A stretch of 64,000 nt of DNA from the human T2T-CHM13v2.0 reference genome, Homo sapiens, in NCBI RefSeq assembly GCF_009914755.1, contig NC_060932.1. One strand, given 5' to 3'. The position numbers and the translations under genes were made by a program. Under the pieces are notes generated by a model that had not been told where the DNA came from, made no database searches, and saw only the letters and a list, made by a program, of their open reading frames with translations. This document shows positions 9,150-61,790 of this stretch, piece after piece (positions within the stretch are counted from its first letter, which is position 1; every line of letters starts with the position of its first letter).

Positions 9150-9630
9150 CTTATAGAGCCAGAGGAGTAACCGGTTCTGCTGTGGCTTCAGCCAGTTTCG
9201 TGCAGGTATATTCTGATAACACTTTGCCTCATGCCCTCCATGAAGGCCTCTGCTGACATGACTGCTGAAGTAGGGTAACCTTCTGAATGCTCACCCAAAT
9301 ACAGCTTAGAAGCACTCCAACGAACGGACGTTTGATGGATTGGACACAAAAGCTCTCATGGATAGATGCTTCCTTCCTTCCTACCCTATAAAGTCCTGAA
9401 ATGTGCTTCATAAGGTTCTTCAAAATGTCTCATGGGATTTACCAAGCAGTTGCACCATAGCAACGGCCAACTCAAGGAGGTATCTTTCTATTGGTTTTCC
9501 CTTCTTTCTTGCCTCGCCCCACACCCCCACCCCCATCTCTCTCCTTTATATTTCCTGGATCACATTTTCCAAGAAAGCACATCCACTTAAGACTTTGTTT
9601 CAGGTTCTGATTTCTGGGGAATCCAATTCT
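9150..9630 (+). mobile_element. Probable old ERVL-class LTR remnant (LTR16/LTR33-like)
   Basis: The 3' part (tggatcacattttcc...gactttgtttcaggttctgatttctggggaatccaa) resembles ERVL LTR ends. Heavily diverged. Confidence 0.35.
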
Positions 9631-16300: not shown

Positions 16301-17119
16301 CCTTTTTAAAATAAGAATTGGCAACTCGTTGCCACTGATTTGGAAAAGATTTAACATATAAGTTAAGTGGTACTTCAACCCATATTTCTAGCTTGTAGGA
16401 TGCCAGCCATCTCAGTGATAACTCAACAAATTGCAGCAACATTGCATGCATTTAACCAAGTGTAAATGAAAATAATTCTCCATAGTGTCCAAGCTCAAAT
16501 ACCCACTTAATGATTTGTTATTACAGTTTTGAGCACCAAATTTTTATTTAATTCTCCCTTTATTAAAAGGTTTGTTTTACCCTATTTTCACTGCAGCATG
16601 ATCACTATATACCAAAACATAATAAAGACATGAAAACAGACTTTTACAGTTTGAAGTCTCTAGCCAATCCTTATTTTAATGTAGCAATTCGCAGTGTATT
16701 CTGTAATATGAAACATTAAACCTGGCATTTTGTTGGAGCTATAAAATTTAAAAACTCACCTATAAACATTATTTACGAAAAGTAAGTGACAGCTGAAATT
16801 CTTTCTCAATAAGAGTTTTGGGAGGCCTAGAGCCTCTCCTCTTTCTTCTTTCTCAGTTCCAGTTTTTTGTTTTTTTTTTAATCAACTTTCCCACTTATTC
16901 TCAAATCTTTATGCTCACACTTGCTGCTTTCTCTTCATACCACACGCCAGGGTTATGACGGTGCTAGCCAGGCCACAGGCTTAGCAGGCCAAGCTGTGTG
17001 CAAAGGCAGCACCATGTTTGATTCGTGTCATTACTCCATGCCCCAGCACAGTGCCTGAAATGTAGAAGGAATTCAACCAGAGAAAGAACCTAAACTGTAC
17101 TTGTTTAATTTCTCAATTC

Positions 17120-17130
17120 AAGAAATTTTT

Positions 17131-17133
<3 letters not shown>
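17120..17133 (+). repeat. Left target-site duplication of the compound L1 insertion (AAGAAATTTTTTGG)
   Basis: Identical 14-mer at 25685-25698, directly after a ~24-nt A run. Bottom-strand site 5'-TTCTT/GA fits L1 endonuclease preference. Confidence 0.9.
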
Positions 17134-18894
<1,761 letters not shown>

Positions 18895-19052
18895 TGAAAT
18901 TACTGTATTGGCTACTACAAAAAAACATGAGTGAATAAACATACACACACACACACACACACATACACACACACACACACACAGAAAGAGAGAGGGGGGC
19001 AGGCGGCATGGGGGCATTTTAAAATATGCTACCCAAGTTAAAAGCTATTTTC
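18895..19052 (+). other. 3'-transduced flank of L1 #1, part 1 (includes a (CA)n microsatellite at ~18940-18983)
   Basis: Unique sequence after the first poly(A) and inside the 17120/25685 TSD pair. Continues at 25644-25662. Confidence 0.8.
19040..19052 (-). repeat. TSD of L1 #2 (AAAAGCTATTTTC), copy adjacent to the poly(A) tail
   Basis: Identical 13-mer at 25631-25643. Pre-insertion site TTTC/AA is an L1 EN-type site. Confidence 0.88.
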
Positions 19053-19278
19053 TTTTTTTTTTTTTTTTTTTTTATTATACTCTAAGTTTTAGGGTACATG
19101 TGCACATTGTGCAGGTTAGTTACATATGTATACATGTGCCATGCTGGTGCGCTGCACCCACTAGCTCGTCATCTAGCATTAGGTATATCTCCCAATGCTA
19201 TCCCTCCCCCCTCCCCCGACCCCACCACAGTCCCCAGAGTGTGATATTCCCCTTCCTGTGTCCATGTGATCTCATTGT

Positions 19279-23107
<3,829 letters not shown>

Positions 23108-23170
23108 TATGATGTTAGCTGGTGATTTTGCTCATTAGTTGATGCAGTTTCTTCCTAGTCTCGATGGTCT

Positions 23171-24187
23171 TTACATTTTGGCATGATTTTGCAGCGGCTG
23201 GTACCGGTTGTTCCTTTCCATGTTTAGCGCTTCCTTCAGGAGCTCTTTTAGGGCAGGCCTGGTGGTGACAAAATCTCTCAACATTTGCTTGTCTATAAAG
23301 TATTTTGTTTCTCCTTCACTTATGAAGCTTAGTTTGGCTGGATATGAAATTCTGGGTTGAAAATTCTTTTCTTTAAGAATGTTGAATATTGGCCCCCACT
23401 CTCTTCTGGCTTGTAGGGTTTCTGCCGAGAGATCCGCTGTTAGTCTGATGGGCTTTCCTTTGAGGGTAACCCGACCTTTCTCTCTGGCTGCCCTTAACAT
23501 TTTTTCCTTCATTTCAACTTTGGTGAATCTGACAATTATGTGTCTTGGAGTTGCTCTTCTCGAGGAGTATCTTTGTGGCGTTCTCTGTATTTCCTGAATC
23601 TGAACGTTGGCCTGCCTTGCTAGATTGGGGAAGTTCTCCTGGATAATATCCTGCAGAGTGTTTTCCAACTTGGTTCCATTCTCCACATCACTTTCAGGTA
23701 CACCAATCAGACGTAGATTTGGTCTTTTCACATAGTCCCATATTTCTTGGAGGCTTTGCTCATTTCTTTTTATTCTTTTTTCTCTAAACTTCCCTTCTCG
23801 CTTCATTTCATTCATTTCATCTTCCATTGCTGATACCCTTTCTTCCAGTTGATCGCATCGGCTCCTGAGGCTTCTGCATTCTTCACCTAGTTCTCGAGCC
23901 TTGGTTTTCAGCTCCATCAGCTCCTTTAAGCACTTCTCTGTATTGGTTATTCTAGTTATACATTCTTCTAAATTTTTTTCAAAGTTTTCAACTTCTTTGC
24001 CTTTGGTTTGAATGTCCTCCCGTAGCTCAGAGTAATTTGATCGTCTGAAGCCTTCTTCTCTCAGCTCGTCAAAATCATTCTCCATCCAGCTTTGTTCTGT
24101 TGCTGGTGAGGAACTGCATTCCTTTGGAGGAGGAGAGGCGCTCTGCATTTTAGAGTTTCCAGTTTTTCTGTTCTGTTTTTTCCCCAT
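23171..24187 (-). CDS. LINE-1 ORF1p (RNA-binding nucleic acid chaperone), intact 338 aa
   Basis: MGKKQNRKTGNSK...ARREWG...YPAKLS...NHAKM, full length. Confidence 0.97.
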   Translation of the reverse strand: MGKKQNRKTGNSKMQSASPPPKECSSSPATEQSWMENDFDELREEGFRRSNYSELREDIQTKGKEVENFEKNLEECITRITNTEKCLKELMELKTKARELGEECRSLRSRCDQLEERVSAMEDEMNEMKREGKFREKRIKRNEQSLQEIWDYVKRPNLRLIGVPESDVENGTKLENTLQDIIQENFPNLARQANVQIQEIQRTPQRYSSRRATPRHIIVRFTKVEMKEKMLRAAREKGRVTLKGKPIRLTADLSAETLQARREWGPIFNILKEKNFQPRISYPAKLSFISEGETKYFIDKQMLRDFVTTRPALKELLKEALNMERNNRYQPLQNHAKM

Positions 24188-25090
24188 CTTTGTGGTTTTA
24201 TCTACTTTTGGTCTTTGATGATGGTGATGTACAGATGGGTTTTCGGTGTAGATGTCCTTTCTGGTTGTTAGTTTTCCTTCTAACAGACAGGACCCTCAGC
24301 TGCAGGTCTGTTGGAATACCCTGCCGTGTGAGGTGTCAGTGTGCCCCTGCTGGGGGGTGCCTCCCAGTTAGGCTGCTCGGGGGTCAGGAGTCAGGGACCC
24401 ACTTGAGGAGGCAGTCTGCCCGTTCTCAGATCTCCAGCTGCGTGCTGGGAGAACCACTGCTCTCTTCAAAGCTGTCAGACAGGGACATTTAAGTCTGCAG
24501 AGGTTACTGCTGTCTTTTTGTTTGTCTGTGCCCTGCCCCCAGAGGTGGAGCCTACAGAGGCAGGCAGGCCTCCTTGAGCTGTGGTGGGCTCCACCCAGTT
24601 CGAGCTTCCTGGCTGCTTTGTTTACCTAAGCAAGCCTGGGCAATGGCGGGCGCCCCTCCCCCAGCCTCGTTGCCGCCTTGCAGTTTGATCTCAGACTGCT
24701 GTGCTAGCAATCAGCGAGATTCCGTGGGCGTAGGACCCTCTGAGCCAGGTGTGGGATATAGTCTCGTGGTGTGCCGTTTCTTAAGCCGGTCTGAAAAGCG
24801 CAATATTCGGGTGGGAGTGACCCGATTTTCCAGGTGCGTCCGTCACCCCTTTCTTTGACTCGGAAAGGGAACTCCCTGACCCCTTGCGCTTCCCAGGTGA
24901 GGCAATGCCTCGCCCTGCTTCGGCTCGCGCACGGTGCGCACACACACTGGCCTGCGCCCACTGTCTGGCACTCCCTAGTGAGATGAACCCGGTACCTCAG
25001 ATGGAAATGCAGAAATCACCGTCTTCTGCGTCGCTCACGCTTGGAGCTGTAGACCGGAGCTGTTCCTATTTGGCCATCTTGGCTCCTCCC
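24188..25090 (-). promoter_or_regulatory. L1 #2 5'UTR: CpG-rich internal sense promoter (YY1 site) and antisense promoter
   Basis: Complete CpG-rich 5'UTR; AAGATGGCC YY1 core near 25072-25080. Confidence 0.85.
24643..24858 (+). CDS. LINE-1 ORF0 (71 aa, antisense in the 5'UTR) of L1 #2
   Basis: ATG at 24643. MAGAPPPASLPPCSLISDCCASNQRDSVGVGPSEPG...RHPFL lies within listed ORF 24574-24858. Confidence 0.85.
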   Translation: MAGAPPPASLPPCSLISDCCASNQRDSVGVGPSEPGVGYSLVVCRFLSRSEKRNIRVGVTRFSRCVRHPFL

Positions 25091-25630
25091 TAAATAGCTG
25101 TTGTTGGCCGAGCATGGTGGCACACGCCTGTAATCTCAGCACTTTCGGAGGCCGAGGCGGGCGGATCACAAGGTCAGGAGATCCAGACTATCCAGGCTAA
25201 CACGGTGTAACCCCGTCTCTAGATCAGCCTTCGCTTGGGCAGGGTCCAGATGCGGAGATGTGAAAAACGTGATGCCACCAGGCCATCATCACATCAAGTT
25301 CCAGTCTGTCCCCCTTCCTCTTCCTCTGGGAACAGCTCCACCAATTTTATGTATGCCTTTAGAGAATCTGCCTTTACAGAACTTGAAGAGCTCTGATGGA
25401 GGAACAGAGATGCTGTGGTGGTAGTGGCCTTGGAGGTGGTGGTAGTGGCAATGGTGATGATGATGATGATGAAAGAAGAAGAAAACGGTGATGGTAAATG
25501 TCATCTGACCAATACTCGGGAGGCTGGTCCCGAGTCCCAGCTACTCGGGAGGCTGAGGCAGGAGGATTGCTTACGGCAACAGCTGTGGCGGCTGCAGCCT
25601 CGAAGGATGCTGCGCTCCAGTCCAGAGCCC
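25091..25630 (-). other. ~540-bp 5' transduction of L1 #2 (apparently spliced upstream transcript)
   Basis: Lies between the L1 5' end and its TSD (25631-25643). GC/CpG-rich start, an Alu fragment, a (CAT/CAC)n tract and an Alu left arm cut exactly at a splice acceptor. Confidence 0.82.
25106..25221 (+). mobile_element. Alu left arm (AluY/Sc-like), antisense to L1 #2, inside the 5' transduction
   Basis: ggccgagcatggtggc...gcggatcacaaggtcaggagatccagact...ccccgtctcta, then an abrupt switch to non-Alu sequence. Confidence 0.9.
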
Positions 25631-25643
25631 AAAAGCTATTTTC

Positions 25644-25686
25644 AAAAGAGATTGATAAATCCAAAAAAAAAAAAAAAAAAAAAAAA
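25644..25686 (+). other. 3'-transduced flank of L1 #1, part 2 (19 nt) plus second poly(A) tail
   Basis: aaaagagattgataaatcc followed by A24 (25663-25686) that overlaps the start of the right TSD. Confidence 0.8.
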
Positions 25687-26484
25687 GAAATTTTTTGGAA
25701 GAAATTTTTATTGTGCTCAGAATAATGATTTCCAGTGTAGATTTTAAAATCAAATCAGATTATGCTTCATGACACTTGACTGTGATTTATGTATTCACAT
25801 AGATAAATTTGAAGGAAAGATATGATAAAGATAGGGTAAGTAAAAAAATGAGCCTTTTGTAGTTCTATGCTAGCATATTTGATTTTATAATATTATCTAG
25901 CAAAATATATACCGTATACAAATAGAAGTAAAATGAGTCTAGGTAATAAATTTAAATGTATGTTATTTCCTATTGTGTACTAATGGACCATACTTATTTT
26001 CTTCCCCTGAGGGAAGGACTCTGATGTCCTACTGAGGTCAAACTCATTAAATCTCATCCGTGTAGAATGTGGAATTTAAAATATTTAAATCCATGTAGAA
26101 TTTAAAATATTTCAGAAACTCTGCTCATTCATTGTAAAACCCACCTTTTGTCAGTATTTTTTTTAGCTTACAGTATAATAATAATAGTTAACTCTATTTT
26201 ATCATTTCATGGACCACAGATATATTCTGGATAAAAGTAACTAAAGTGATCTGCAGGTATTTAAGCATGGTTGGCTCTTGAGGCTCTGTCTTCTGCCCTG
26301 AGATTATCTAATAATGCTAATGTTGACATTTTACCCCAGGTATTTATAAAGGAAAAATAAATTTACTACTCTTAAGACCCACATTTACTAGTTAAGAAAA
26401 ATCAAAAGTAAATTTAAATTGAATATCTAATTAAATAGTATCTTAATTTGTTCATCTCAGCTAGAGAGTAACAAGTATATGTAA

Positions 26485-55423: not shown

Positions 55424-55860
55424 GCACATTTGGTCTCCACCTACTGGAAAACAGGCAGGAATTGCTGTGTGTTTCACAGACATGGACCACGAAGAGGATA
55501 AAGTGAGTTAACTTGTTAAGTGCTAAGAAATATTCTCCATAAACTCAAGCTATTATACTTACATAATATGAGTCTCTTCTCTGGAGGCGGTCTTCATGGA
55601 TTGTTTGCCAGCCTAGCCTTAAAAATGTCAGGCATCGAAGATGGCCGAATAGCAACAGCTCCGGTCTACAGCTCCCAGCGTGAGCGACGCAGAAGACGGG
55701 TGATTTCTGCATTTCCATCTGAGGTACCGGGTTCATCTCACTAGGGAGTGCCAGACAGTGGGCGCAGGCCAGTGTGTGTGCGCACCGTGTGCGAGCCGAA
55801 GCAGGGCGAGGCATTGCCTCACCTGGGAAGCGCAAGGGGTCAGGGAGTTCCCTTTCCGAG

Positions 55861-56076
55861 TCAAAGAAAGGGGTGACTGACGCACCTGGAAAATCGGGTC
55901 ACTCCCACCCGAATATTGCGCTTTTCAGACCAGCTTAAGAAACGGCGCACCACGAGACTATATCCCACACCTGGCTCAGAGGGTCCTACGCCCACGGAAT
56001 CTCGCTGATTGCTAGCACAGCAGTCTGAGATCAAACTGCAAGGCGGCAACGAGGCTGGGGGAGGGGCGCCCGCCAT
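55861..56076 (-). CDS. LINE-1 ORF0 (71 aa) of L1 #3
   Basis: MAGAPPPASLPP...HPFL lies within listed ORF 55861-56145. Confidence 0.85.
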   Translation of the reverse strand: MAGAPPPASLPPCSLISDCCASNQRDSVGVGPSEPGVGYSLVVRRFLSWSEKRNIRVGVTRFSRCVSHPFL

Positions 56077-56531
56077 TGCCCAGGCTTGCTTAGGTAAACA
56101 AAGCAGCCAGGAAGCTCGAACTGGGTGGAGCCCACCACAGCTCAAGGAGGCCTGCCTGCCTCTGTAGGCTCCACCTCTGGGGGCAGGGCACAGACAAACA
56201 AAAAGACAGCAGTAACCTCTGCAGACTTAAATGTCCCTGTCTGACAGCTTTGAAGAGAGCAGTGGTTCTCCCAGCACGCAGCTGGAGATCTGAGAACGGG
56301 CAGACTGCCTCCTCAAGTGGGTCCCTGACCCCTGACCCCCGAGCAGCCTAACTGGGAGGCACCCCCCAGCAGGGGCACACTGACACCTCACACGGCAGGG
56401 TATTCCAACAGACCTGCAGCTGAGGGTCCTGTCTGTTAGAAGGAAAACTAACAACCAGAAAGGACATCTACACCGAAAACCCATCTGTACATCACCATCA
56501 TCAAAGACCAAAAGTAGATAAAACCACAAAG

Positions 56532-57548
56532 ATGGGGAAAAAACAGAACAGAAAAACTGGAAACTCTAAAACACAGAGCGCCTCTCCTCCTCCAAAGGAA
56601 CGCAGTTCCTCACCAGCAACAGAACAAAGCTGGATGGAGAATGATTTTGACGAGCTGAGAGAAGAAGGCTTCAGACGATCAAATTACTCTGAGCTACGGG
56701 AGGACATTCAAACCAAAGGCAAAGAAGTTGAAAACTTTGAAAAAAATTTAGAAGAATGTATAACTAGAATAACCAATACAGAGAAGTGCTTAAAGGAGCT
56801 GATGGAGCTGAAAACCAAGGCTCGAGAACTACTTGAAGAATGCAGAAGCCTCAGGAGCCGATGCGATCAACTGGAAGAAAGGGTATCAGCAATGGAAGAT
56901 GAAATGAATGAAATGAAGCGAGAAGGGAAGTTTAGAGAAAAAAGAATAAAAAGAAATGAGCAAAGCCTCCAAGAAATATGGGACTATGTGAAAAGACCAA
57001 ATCTACGTCTGATTGGTGTACCTGAAAGTGATGTGGAGAATGGAACCAAGTTGGAAAACACTCTGCAGGATATTATCCAGGAGAACTTCCCCAATCTAGC
57101 AAGGCAGGCCAACGTTCAGATTCAGGAAATACAGAGAACGCCACAAAGATACTCCTCAAGAAGAGCAACTCCAAGACACATAATTGTCAGATTCACCAAA
57201 GTTGAAATGAAGGAAAAAATGTTAAGGGCAGCCAGAGAGAAAGGTCGGGTTACCCTCAAAGGAAAGCCCATCAGACTAACAGCGGATCTCTCGGCAGAAA
57301 CCCTACAAGCCAGAAGAGAGTGGGGGCCAATATTCAACATTCTTAAAGAAAAGAATTTTCCACCCAGAATTTCATATCCAGCCAAACTAAGCTTCATAAG
57401 TGAAGGAGAAATAAAATACTTTATAGACAAGCAAATGCTGAGAGATTTTGTCACCACCAGGCCTGCCCTAAAAGAGCTCCTGAAGGAAGCGCTAAACATG
57501 GAAAGGAACAATCGGTACCAGCCGCTGCAAAATCATGCCAAAATGTAA
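56532..57548 (+). CDS. LINE-1 ORF1p, intact 338 aa
   Basis: Full-length ORF1 with ARREWG and YPAKLS motifs. Confidence 0.97.
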   Translation: MGKKQNRKTGNSKTQSASPPPKERSSSPATEQSWMENDFDELREEGFRRSNYSELREDIQTKGKEVENFEKNLEECITRITNTEKCLKELMELKTKARELLEECRSLRSRCDQLEERVSAMEDEMNEMKREGKFREKRIKRNEQSLQEIWDYVKRPNLRLIGVPESDVENGTKLENTLQDIIQENFPNLARQANVQIQEIQRTPQRYSSRRATPRHIIVRFTKVEMKEKMLRAAREKGRVTLKGKPIRLTADLSAETLQARREWGPIFNILKEKNFPPRISYPAKLSFISEGEIKYFIDKQMLRDFVTTRPALKELLKEALNMERNNRYQPLQNHAKM

Positions 57549-57587
57549 AGACCATCGAGACTAGGAAGAAACTGCATCAACTAATGA

Positions 57588-61439
<3,852 letters not shown>

Positions 61440-61676
61440 ACAATGAGATCACTTGGACACAGGAAGGGGAATATCACACTCTGGGGACTGTGGTGGGGTG
61501 GGGGGAGGGGGGAGGGATAGCATTGGGAGATATACCTAATGCTAGATGACACGTTAGTGGGTGCAGCGCACCAGCATGGCACATGTATACATATGTAACT
61601 AACCTGCACAATGTGCACATGTACCCTAAAACTTAGAGTATAATAAAAAAAAAAAAATTTAAAAAAAAAAAAAAAA

Positions 61677-61790
61677 TGCAAGTTTAGTTAACATTTTCAG
61701 CCAGCATGCTAAACCTTGTGATGAAGTCATAGGGTCTTATACTCACGATTTGATAACATAATAGAACTATTAAAAGAAGTCTGATTCATT
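61677..61790 (+). other. 114-bp 3' transduction of L1 #3
   Basis: Unique sequence between two poly(A) tracts and inside the TSD. ATTAAA at 61769-61774, ~16 nt before the second tail. Confidence 0.9.

What the first reader, a model, noticed from the sequence alone, without database searches (positions are those of the whole stretch)
25091..25630. ~540-bp 5' transduction: L1 #2 appears to be copied from a chimeric mRNA that began at an upstream cellular promoter
Seen: the inner TSD is 540 bp beyond the L1 5' end. On the minus strand this segment opens with a GC/CpG-rich stretch (GGGCTCTGGACTGGAGCGCAGCATCCTTCGAGGCTGCAGCCGCC), unlike the AT-rich surroundings and like a first exon. It continues with Alu-derived, low-complexity and unique blocks. 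Established: L1 5' transductions are much rarer than 3' ones and need an upstream promoter. Inference: this is a cDNA record of a germline or early-embryo host/lncRNA-L1 fusion transcript, and it tags the source element. The first G may be cap-derived. I do not recognise the donor gene.
Basis: partly seen in the sequence, partly recalled or inferred. Interest (0 to 1): 0.8.

Follow-up and report, generated by a model that had tools for sequence, protein, structure and literature searches.

The report
Spliced host exons fused to L1
A full-length L1 retrotransposon on chromosome 8 carries, inside the same insertion scars, a 540-base copy of five spliced exons from a chromosome 15 transcript; this kind of host-RNA/L1 hybrid was described only recently, and this copy is not in the published list.

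Summary
One exact 13-bp target-site duplication (19040-19052 and 25631-25643; 2 matches in the window, 0.02 expected) encloses a poly(A) tail, a full-length minus-strand L1 (19084-25090) and a 540-bp leader (25091-25630).

The leader is not a contiguous flank. It is one untemplated G plus five exons of a chr15 transcript (C15:30991186 down to 30935791, 55 kb). All four internal joins sit at GT..AG sites. Exon 1 starts at the edge of a CpG-island-like promoter.

Exon 5 is an antisense-Alu exon. It meets the L1 5' end exactly at its own splice donor (TTTAG|GTATTT on chr15). In this genome no L1 follows that exon, and no L1 5' half lies in the next 250 kb. The junction is unique genome-wide.

So a cellular promoter and a chimeric RNA are supported. 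A source L1 tagged by the leader is not.

The most likely route is a donor-to-L1 join made by splicing (in cis to a lost intronic L1, or in trans), then one L1-mediated insertion event (TPRT). The main rival is a reverse-transcriptase jump from the L1 RNA 5' end.

Law and Burns (Cell Genomics 2026) describe 17 such insertions. This locus is not among them. It is a new member of a known kind.

The parts
19040..19052 (.). Target-site duplication, copy next to the L1 poly(A)
   Evidence: Exact 13-mer AAAAGCTATTTTC. Only 2 matches in the window, 0.02 expected (D17).
19053..19083 (-). L1 poly(A) tail, 31 nt, uninterrupted (reads as a T run on the + strand)
   Evidence: Sequence read.
19084..25090 (-). 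Full-length L1 body (about 6.0 kb). ORF1 is open (24187..23171, 338 aa). ORF2 is in two pieces (23107..22493, 204 aa; 22311..19279, 1010 aa). L1PA2-like by a recalled 3'UTR diagnostic.
   Evidence: ORFs; the 5'UTR is 99% identical to 39 of 39 other scored copies, none on C15. Searches give both ends. The base at 25090 (a G on the minus strand) could come from exon 5 or from the L1.
25091..25218 (-). Leader exon 5 (128 nt): antisense left arm of an Alu plus its flank. It ends at the exon's splice donor and abuts the L1 5' end.
   Evidence: Matches C15:30935791-30935918 with 126 of 128 identical. Acceptor is TTTTTAGTAG|AGACGG and donor is TTTAG|GTATTT on chr15. Other Alus in the genome match at 93% or less.
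25219..25283 (-). Leader exon 4 (65 nt)
   Evidence: Matches C15:30976681-30976745 with 65 of 65 identical. Flanked by ..ACACAG| and |GTAAGA on chr15.
25284..25352 (-). Leader exon 3 (69 nt)
   Evidence: Matches C15:30988748-30988816 with 68 of 69 identical. Flanked by ..TTTCCAG| and |GTAAAT.
25353..25504 (-). Leader exon 2 (152 nt), with triplet and 21-nt repeats
   Evidence: Matches C15:30990393-30990544 with 152 of 152 identical. Flanked by ..TTTATAG| and |GTAAGT.
25505..25629 (-). Leader exon 1 (125 nt), G+C-rich, holding a short Alu-derived piece
   Evidence: Matches C15:30991062-30991186 with 124 of 125 identical. Donor is GGTCAG|GTAAAG. It starts at the 3' edge of a CpG-island-like stretch.
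25630..25630 (-). One G not templated at the donor locus (chr15 has T). Likely copied from the RNA cap.
   Evidence: Table S5 of PMC13174262 lists untemplated 5' letters (G, C, T, GGG, GGT, TGGG) in its cases too.
25631..25643 (.). Target-site duplication, copy at the leader's 5' end

Best explanation
One L1-driven target-primed reverse transcription event inserted a cDNA of a hybrid RNA into chr8. The hybrid RNA was: cap, then five spliced exons of a chr15q13 transcript, then a full-length L1 RNA with its poly(A). The chr15 transcript starts at a CpG-island-type promoter. It lies about 71 kb upstream of, and on the same strand as, the first long coding exon of a formin gene (FMN1 by recall only). 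Shown: single TSD, endonuclease-like nick site, poly(A), spliced colinear origin, start at a promoter-like site, untemplated 5' G, and a join that falls exactly on the exon-5 splice donor. Inferred: the exon-5/L1 join was made at the RNA level by the spliceosome. The donor of exon 5, which faces a long intron, was joined to an AG formed at the very 5' edge of an L1. That L1 either lay in the downstream intron (an allele since lost or never fixed) or was on another pre-RNA (trans-splicing). The hybrid RNA still encoded ORF1p and ORF2p and was mobilised in cis. I put about 0.95 on the single-event host-exon/L1 chimera and about 0.55 on splicing as the joining step.
For: TSD, poly(A) and nick site. 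Five colinear chr15 blocks with GT..AG at all four internal joins and 535 of 539 identity. The promoter-like stretch from -500 to +100 of exon 1 has G+C of 63-69% and CpG obs/exp of 0.66-0.77. The join falls at TTTAG|GTATTT. A donor at least this good (GT plus 6 or more of 9 consensus letters) occurs at 0.9% of positions, and the AGGTA core at 0.09%, in 250 kb of chr15. The L1 is full length with ORF1 still open, as cis mobilisation of a coding hybrid RNA predicts. The published class shows the same anatomy (PMC13174262, sections 13 and 20 and all 17 rows of Table S5 read). In that class six exon pieces end at donors. PALLD and CREM join at L1-internal acceptors. TPK1 joins at ATGGCC, where my window's L1 reads ...GCCAAG|ATGGCC, so an AG precedes that point. 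The downstream introns are long (median 48 kb). Here exon 5 lies about 71 kb upstream of the first long open exon of the formin gene.
Against: No L1 follows exon 5 in this genome. None of the 14 L1 matches in the 250 kb downstream reaches L1 positions 1-2912. So cis-splicing needs an allele that is not here. An L1 RNA started at its own promoter has no branch site or AG upstream, so splicing to L1 base 2-3 needs a read-through L1 pre-RNA with an AG exactly at the boundary. Several published cases also join within a few bases of the L1 start, some with 2-12 unmapped bases. That pattern is what an end-of-template jump would give.
Confidence: 0.55

Rival explanations
1. Template jump. A normal, promoter-initiated full-length L1 RNA was copied to its capped 5' end at the chr8 nick. 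ORF2p then jumped to the 3' end of a second RNA and copied it to its cap. The second RNA was a chr15 transcript already spliced through exons 1-5 and ending at the exon-5 3'-OH, for example a free 5'-exon left after the first splicing step at a long intron.
For: The L1 part begins at its natural terminus. There is a 1-2 nt G overlap at the join (chr15 TTTAGGT versus chr8 TTTAGGG). No source L1 is needed, which fits. Table S5 of PMC13174262 has several joins at L1 bases 1-10, four with short unmapped bases, plus an RPL21 mRNA-poly(A)/L1 chimera.
Against: It needs a rare RNA species ending exactly at an exon's 3' end. The authors of PMC13174262 disfavour template switching because of the splice junction. 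Joins at true L1-internal acceptors (PALLD, CREM, and TPK1 by my reading of where its L1 part starts) show that real splicing into L1 occurs. U6/L1 chimeras, the classical case, have been reassigned to RNA ligation (PMC6789731; abstract only seen in the listing).
Confidence: 0.22
2. Classical read-through 5' transduction. A since-lost L1 sat directly after ...CAGCTATTTAG on chr15. Transcripts from the exon-1 promoter spliced exons 1-5 and then ran straight into it.
For: The leader ends with chr15 sequence up to the last base before the L1. Polymorphic source elements can be absent from one genome.
Against: The insertion point would coincide to within 1 nt with a splice donor. Chance is about 0.1-0.9% per position, times 3 possible registers. 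The 26 nt upstream hold no TTTT/A-like nick site at TSD distance on the other strand (read). No L1 is there in this genome.
Confidence: 0.08
3. RNA ligation before reverse transcription (RtcB-type, as proposed for U6/L1). A chr15 RNA fragment was ligated to an L1 RNA.
For: There is a precedent for RNA-level joining of cellular RNAs to L1 RNA (PMC6789731; abstract seen in the listing).
Against: From recall, that ligase joins 2',3'-cyclic phosphate ends to 5'-OH ends. An exon 3' end after splicing step 1 has a 3'-OH, and a full-length L1 RNA has a cap. Nothing in the sequence calls for it.
Confidence: 0.03
4. Two unrelated events or a chance repeat. A partial retrocopy and an L1 merely lie side by side.
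For: None found.
Against: There is a single exact TSD around both parts. There is no poly(A) or second TSD between leader and L1. No remainder of the chr15 RNA lies beyond the L1 tail.
Confidence: 0.02

Closest known systems
[quoted passage not shown]
   Same: One TSD around both parts, an endonuclease-type nick site and a poly(A). First exon(s) lie in sense orientation. The exon chain ends at a splice donor. The L1 is near full length and joined within its first bases. There are untemplated 5' letters. No source L1 lies in the donor gene. A long intron follows the last included exon.
   Different: This locus is absent from all 17 rows: no chr8 L1 and no 15q13 exons. Its TSD string is in none of the 6 held supplement files. 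The leader is longer (540 nt, five exons) than any spliced leader on a full-length L1 in that table (76-221 nt). The only longer row is a whole RPL21 mRNA on a 450-bp L1 piece. The last exon here is an exonised Alu.
SVA_F1 (MAST2 exon 1 spliced into SVA) and SVA exon trapping
   Same: A host first exon is spliced onto a retrotransposon RNA and the hybrid is retrotransposed by L1 proteins (PMC4859970, passages read).
   Different: There the acceptor lies inside the element and the hybrid founded a subfamily. Here the join is at the element's 5' edge, the element is an autonomous L1, and no progeny exist in this genome.
Classical L1 5' transduction (read-through from a promoter upstream of the source L1)
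   Same: Extra non-L1 sequence lies between the 5' TSD and the L1 5' end. Transcription started at a cellular promoter.
   Different: The extra sequence is spliced from 55 kb of chr15 and is not next to any L1 there.
L1 template-switch chimeras (U6/L1 and chimeric retrogenes)
   Same: Two RNAs are recorded in one insertion with one TSD.
   Different: From recall, those usually carry a 5'-truncated L1 joined at arbitrary positions. Here the L1 is full length and the partner ends at an exon boundary.

Membership tests
L1-mediated TPRT insertion | Target-site duplication flanking the whole insert | tested here: met
   13-bp exact repeat. 2 matches in the window against 0.02 expected.
L1-mediated TPRT insertion | Poly(A) tail at the 3' end and a T-rich/A nick site | tested here: met
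   31-nt A tail. The + strand reads ATTTTC/AAAA at the nick. The consensus TTTT/AA is recalled.
Classical L1 5' transduction | Leader is the contiguous genomic flank directly upstream of the source L1 | tested here: not met
   The leader is five spliced blocks over 55 kb. No L1 follows the last block on chr15 or lies within 250 kb downstream.
Classical L1 5' transduction | Sibling or source elements share the leader | tested here: not met
   Exons 1-4 are found only at chr8 and chr15. The junction 32-mer is unique at up to 3 mismatches. This covers one genome only.
mRNA/lncRNA-LINE-1 chimera (Law and Burns class) | 5' piece maps to the first exon(s) of a transcript, in sense with the L1 | tested here: met
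   Sense orientation. Starts at a CpG-island-like site with an untemplated G. That the chain is an annotated transcript could not be checked, because no annotation of chr15 was on hand.
mRNA/lncRNA-LINE-1 chimera (Law and Burns class) | Exon piece ends at a splice donor next to the L1 | tested here: met
   TTTAG|GTATTT on chr15. Chance is about 0.1-0.9% per position.
mRNA/lncRNA-LINE-1 chimera (Law and Burns class) | Near full-length, protein-coding L1 | tested here: met
   6.0-kb body from the L1 5' terminus. ORF1 is open. ORF2 is now in two pieces, which is compatible with later decay.
mRNA/lncRNA-LINE-1 chimera (Law and Burns class) | Both parts arrive together in the species alignment | not testable with these tools
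   No ape genomes or multi-species alignment were on hand.
Template-switch chimeric retrogene (U6/L1 type) | L1 part 5'-truncated at an arbitrary point, with the partner RNA's natural 3' end at the join | tested here: not met
   The L1 starts at its terminus. The partner ends at an exon boundary, not at a mature RNA 3' end.

The most novel reading that the evidence does not exclude
The join was not made by splicing. ORF2p, on reaching the capped 5' end of an ordinary L1 RNA, jumped onto the 3'-OH of a free 5'-exon splicing intermediate (exons 1-5 waiting at a long intron). If so, these chimeras would be fossils of contact between L1 integration complexes and active or discarded spliceosomes. 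That would fit the recurrent joins of exon donors to L1 bases 1-10, and possibly the frequent U6 chimeras.
Probability: 0.2. Interest if true: 0.75.

Novelty: new member of a known kind. Interest (0 to 1): 0.4.

Why it matters
It adds a clean and probably young case to a class first catalogued in 2025-26. There are only 4 differences in 539 bases from the donor exons, and the poly(A) is 31 nt and uninterrupted. It has the longest spliced leader on a full-length L1 relative to that catalogue. It also shows that a catalogue based on species alignments can miss cases whose L1-proximal piece is an Alu exon.

The exact donor-to-L1-terminus join sharpens an open question: are such hybrids made by cis-splicing, by trans-splicing, or by a reverse-transcriptase jump? 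Such events can hand L1 a new 5' leader and move exons around the genome. For this copy no further consequence is visible. It lies in a gene-free window, left no progeny, and its ORF2 is broken.

Tried and rejected
1. Source L1 next to the last block on chr15: absent.

2. Source L1 further downstream: blastn of the whole L1 against C15:30685792-30935791 gave 14 matches. All were 3' or middle pieces at 65-96% identity, and none reached L1 positions 1-2912.

3. Pattern search for L1 5' ends preceded by A: 135 matches. The list was cut before C15. My pattern differed by one base from the window's copy, so it did not even return the window. The call was uninformative for the source question.

4. 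Nearest relatives of the L1 by its 5'UTR: 39 of 39 other scored copies are 99% identical, none is on C15, and none stands out. The source cannot be named by sequence.

5. Sibling search: none.

6. Rfam: only the expected weak 7SL/Alu match and sub-threshold noise.

8. Papers: searches turned up the Law and Burns work and reviews. No paper was found that names this chr8 locus or an FMN1-L1 chimera. In one search, FMN1 occurred in 0 of the 15 listed papers. The one paper holding LINE-1, template switching and splicing intermediate together is a review of RNA editing, and I did not open it.

9. Table S4 (Alu/L1 chimeras) of PMC13174262 was searched for numbers beginning 9150-9155 (my guessed hg38 position; 0 hits) and for the TSD string (0 hits). 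I saw only 4 of its chr8 rows, so absence from that table rests on the TSD search.

Full report
**The observation**

The window's second L1 lies on the minus strand. Its poly(A) reads as a 31-nt T run at 19053-19083. Its 5' end (GGGAGGAGCC on the minus strand) ends at 25090. The 13-mer AAAAGCTATTTTC occurs exactly twice in the 64-kb window, at 19040-19052 and 25631-25643. The chance expectation is 0.02, and 0 of 100 shuffles gave two matches (D17). One copy abuts the poly(A). The other lies 540 bp beyond the L1 5' end. The pre-insertion + strand reads ATTTTC/AAAA at the nick, close to the L1 endonuclease preference (recalled). So a single target-primed reverse transcription event delivered the L1 plus a 540-bp leader (25091-25630).

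**What the leader is**

The window's own genome is held. It is a human T2T assembly, and the window is C8:92628001-92692000. The leader, read on the minus strand, maps to the minus strand of C15 in five colinear blocks. In script, with the flanks, these are:

| Part | Length | Place on C15 |
|---|---|---|
| Untemplated G | 1 nt | none (chr15 has T) |
| Exon 1 | 125 nt | 30991062-30991186 |
| Exon 2 | 152 nt | 30990393-30990544 |
| Exon 3 | 69 nt | 30988748-30988816 |
| Exon 4 | 65 nt | 30976681-30976745 |
| Exon 5 | 128 nt | 30935791-30935918 |

- Every internal join has AG upstream and GT downstream on chr15. The leader is therefore a spliced RNA from a 55-kb stretch, not a genomic flank.
- Identity is 535 of 539. 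The four differences are at window 25584, 25314, 25208 and 25115. Two are CpG transitions.
- The 600 bp around the exon-1 start have G+C of 63-69% and CpG obs/exp of 0.66-0.77, against 0.1-0.3 further away. This is a CpG-island-type promoter.
- The extra 5' G fits a copied cap. It could also be a T-to-G change.

Exon 5 is the antisense left arm of a full-length Alu that sits on chr15 with its own direct repeats. The exon's acceptor is TTTTTAGTAG|AGACGG. The exon runs 15-16 nt into the Alu's flank. The chr8 copy matches this Alu at 126 of 128, while other Alus match at 93% or less. So the Alu piece came with the RNA.

An FH2 exon (C15:30696269-30696418) and two long open frames lie downstream on the same strand. 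The open frames are 469 aa at 30864353-30862947 and 255 aa ending in an FH2-type start at 30765837-30765073. The leader's exons therefore lie about 71 kb and more upstream of a formin gene. I recall FMN1 at 15q13, but no call gave that name.

**The join to the L1**

- On chr15 the leader's last bases continue as ...CAGCTATTTAG|GTATTTATTTTGG. On chr8 they continue as ...CAGCTATTTAGGGAGGAGCC. The match therefore ends, within a 2-nt G overlap, exactly at a splice-donor-like site.
- In 250 kb of chr15, GT sites matching the donor consensus at least as well make up 0.9% of positions. The AGGTA core makes up 0.09%.
- No L1 follows exon 5 on chr15.
- A blastn of the whole L1 against C15:30685792-30935791 gave 14 matches, all old or 3' pieces. 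None covers L1 positions 1-2912. The next ~125 kb could not be fetched.
- The junction 32-mer is unique in the genome at up to 3 mismatches. Exons 1-4 occur only on chr8 and chr15. There is no sibling and no source with this leader in this genome.
- The L1 5'UTR is 99% identical to all 39 other copies scored. None is on C15 and none stands out. The source cannot be found by sequence.

**The L1 itself**

ORF1 (338 aa) is open. ORF2 is in two pieces of 204 and 1010 aa, over a span of 3829 nt. The 3'UTR carries GAG at the trinucleotide I recall as separating L1PA2 from the human-specific Ta forms. With 0.74% leader divergence and a clean 31-nt tail, this points to an insertion around the time of, or after, the human-chimpanzee split. 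With four events the range is wide.

**Mechanism**

Shown: one TPRT event copied a hybrid of a capped, five-exon chr15 RNA and a full-length L1 RNA.

Inferred: how the two were joined. I favour splicing (about 0.55). The join is at a donor that faces a long intron. Real splicing into L1 is documented for the same class. Under this view an AG must sit exactly at the L1 edge, for example a flank A plus the L1's first G. The L1 must also be part of a longer pre-RNA, either in the downstream intron (an allele not in this genome) or in trans.

The main rival (about 0.22) is an end-of-template jump of ORF2p from the capped L1 5' end onto an RNA that ended at the exon-5 3'-OH. It explains the exact L1 terminus and needs no source L1. 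It does require a rare RNA species.

A lost L1 sitting precisely at the exon/intron border (classical read-through, about 0.08) needs a coincidence with the donor and lacks a good nick site. RNA ligation and two separate events are unlikely.

**What is known**

- Law and Burns (Cell Genomics 2026, PMC13174262; bioRxiv 2025) describe 17 hg38 L1 insertions with mRNA or lncRNA pieces at the 5' end.
- Fifteen of these are in sense orientation, and most L1s are near full length.
- Six end at splice donors.
- Some join within the first 10 bases of L1 without any L1 splice site.
- Fifteen donor genes hold no intronic L1.
- The downstream introns are long.
- The authors favour cis- or trans-splicing and disfavour template switching (sections 13 and 20).

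I read all 17 rows of their Table S5. None is on chr8 and none maps to 15q13. The TSD string is in none of the six held supplement files. Their spliced leaders on full-length L1s are 76-221 nt. This one is 540 nt with five exons.

SVA_F1 (MAST2 exon 1 spliced into SVA) is the older parallel for a non-autonomous element (PMC4859970, passages).

**Verdict**

The feature is real. This is a new, uncatalogued member of a recently described kind. It is of moderate interest, mainly as clean evidence on how exon donors become joined to the L1 5' terminus.

Noticed in passing
window 17114-18906 and 18939-18985: A + strand L1 3' fragment with its own A-rich tail (about 18853-18895) lies tail-to-tail with the minus-strand L1. 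The two are separated by a (CA)n run and about 55 bp of unique sequence.
   Followed up: no
window 55652-61686: A third L1, on the + strand. It starts at ...ATCGAAGATGGCCGAATAGC, so it lacks roughly the first ten bases. It ends in an interrupted A tail near 61650-61680.
   Followed up: partly
window 24258-24826: The RefSeq 'enhancer' named in the hub's note lies wholly inside the 5'UTR of the minus-strand L1, not in the leader.
   Followed up: no
window 25662-25687: A 26-nt A run sits 19 bp beyond the outer TSD copy on the + strand. It may be the tail of an older element that the L1 insertion landed beside.
   Followed up: no
L003 1484-1822 (C15:30935774-30936112): The chr15 Alu that supplies exon 5 is full length and keeps 22-nt direct repeats that differ at one base (AAATACCTAAATAGCTGTTGTT / AAATACCTAAGTAGCTGTTGTT). 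The exon's donor lies inside the left repeat copy, so the donor was pre-existing flank sequence and was not brought by the Alu.
   Followed up: partly
window 25415-25470 (leader exon 2): A 21-nt tandem duplication and a triplet run (D6) are identical on chr8 and chr15. They are therefore old features of the exon, not insertion artefacts.
   Followed up: partly
Table S5 of PMC13174262: In the TPK1 row the L1 part starts at ATGGCC. In my window's L1 this string follows ...GCCAAG, so that join would sit right after an AG within the first 15 L1 bases. This suggests real acceptors at the extreme L1 5' end. The table itself does not say this. It is my reading.
   Followed up: no
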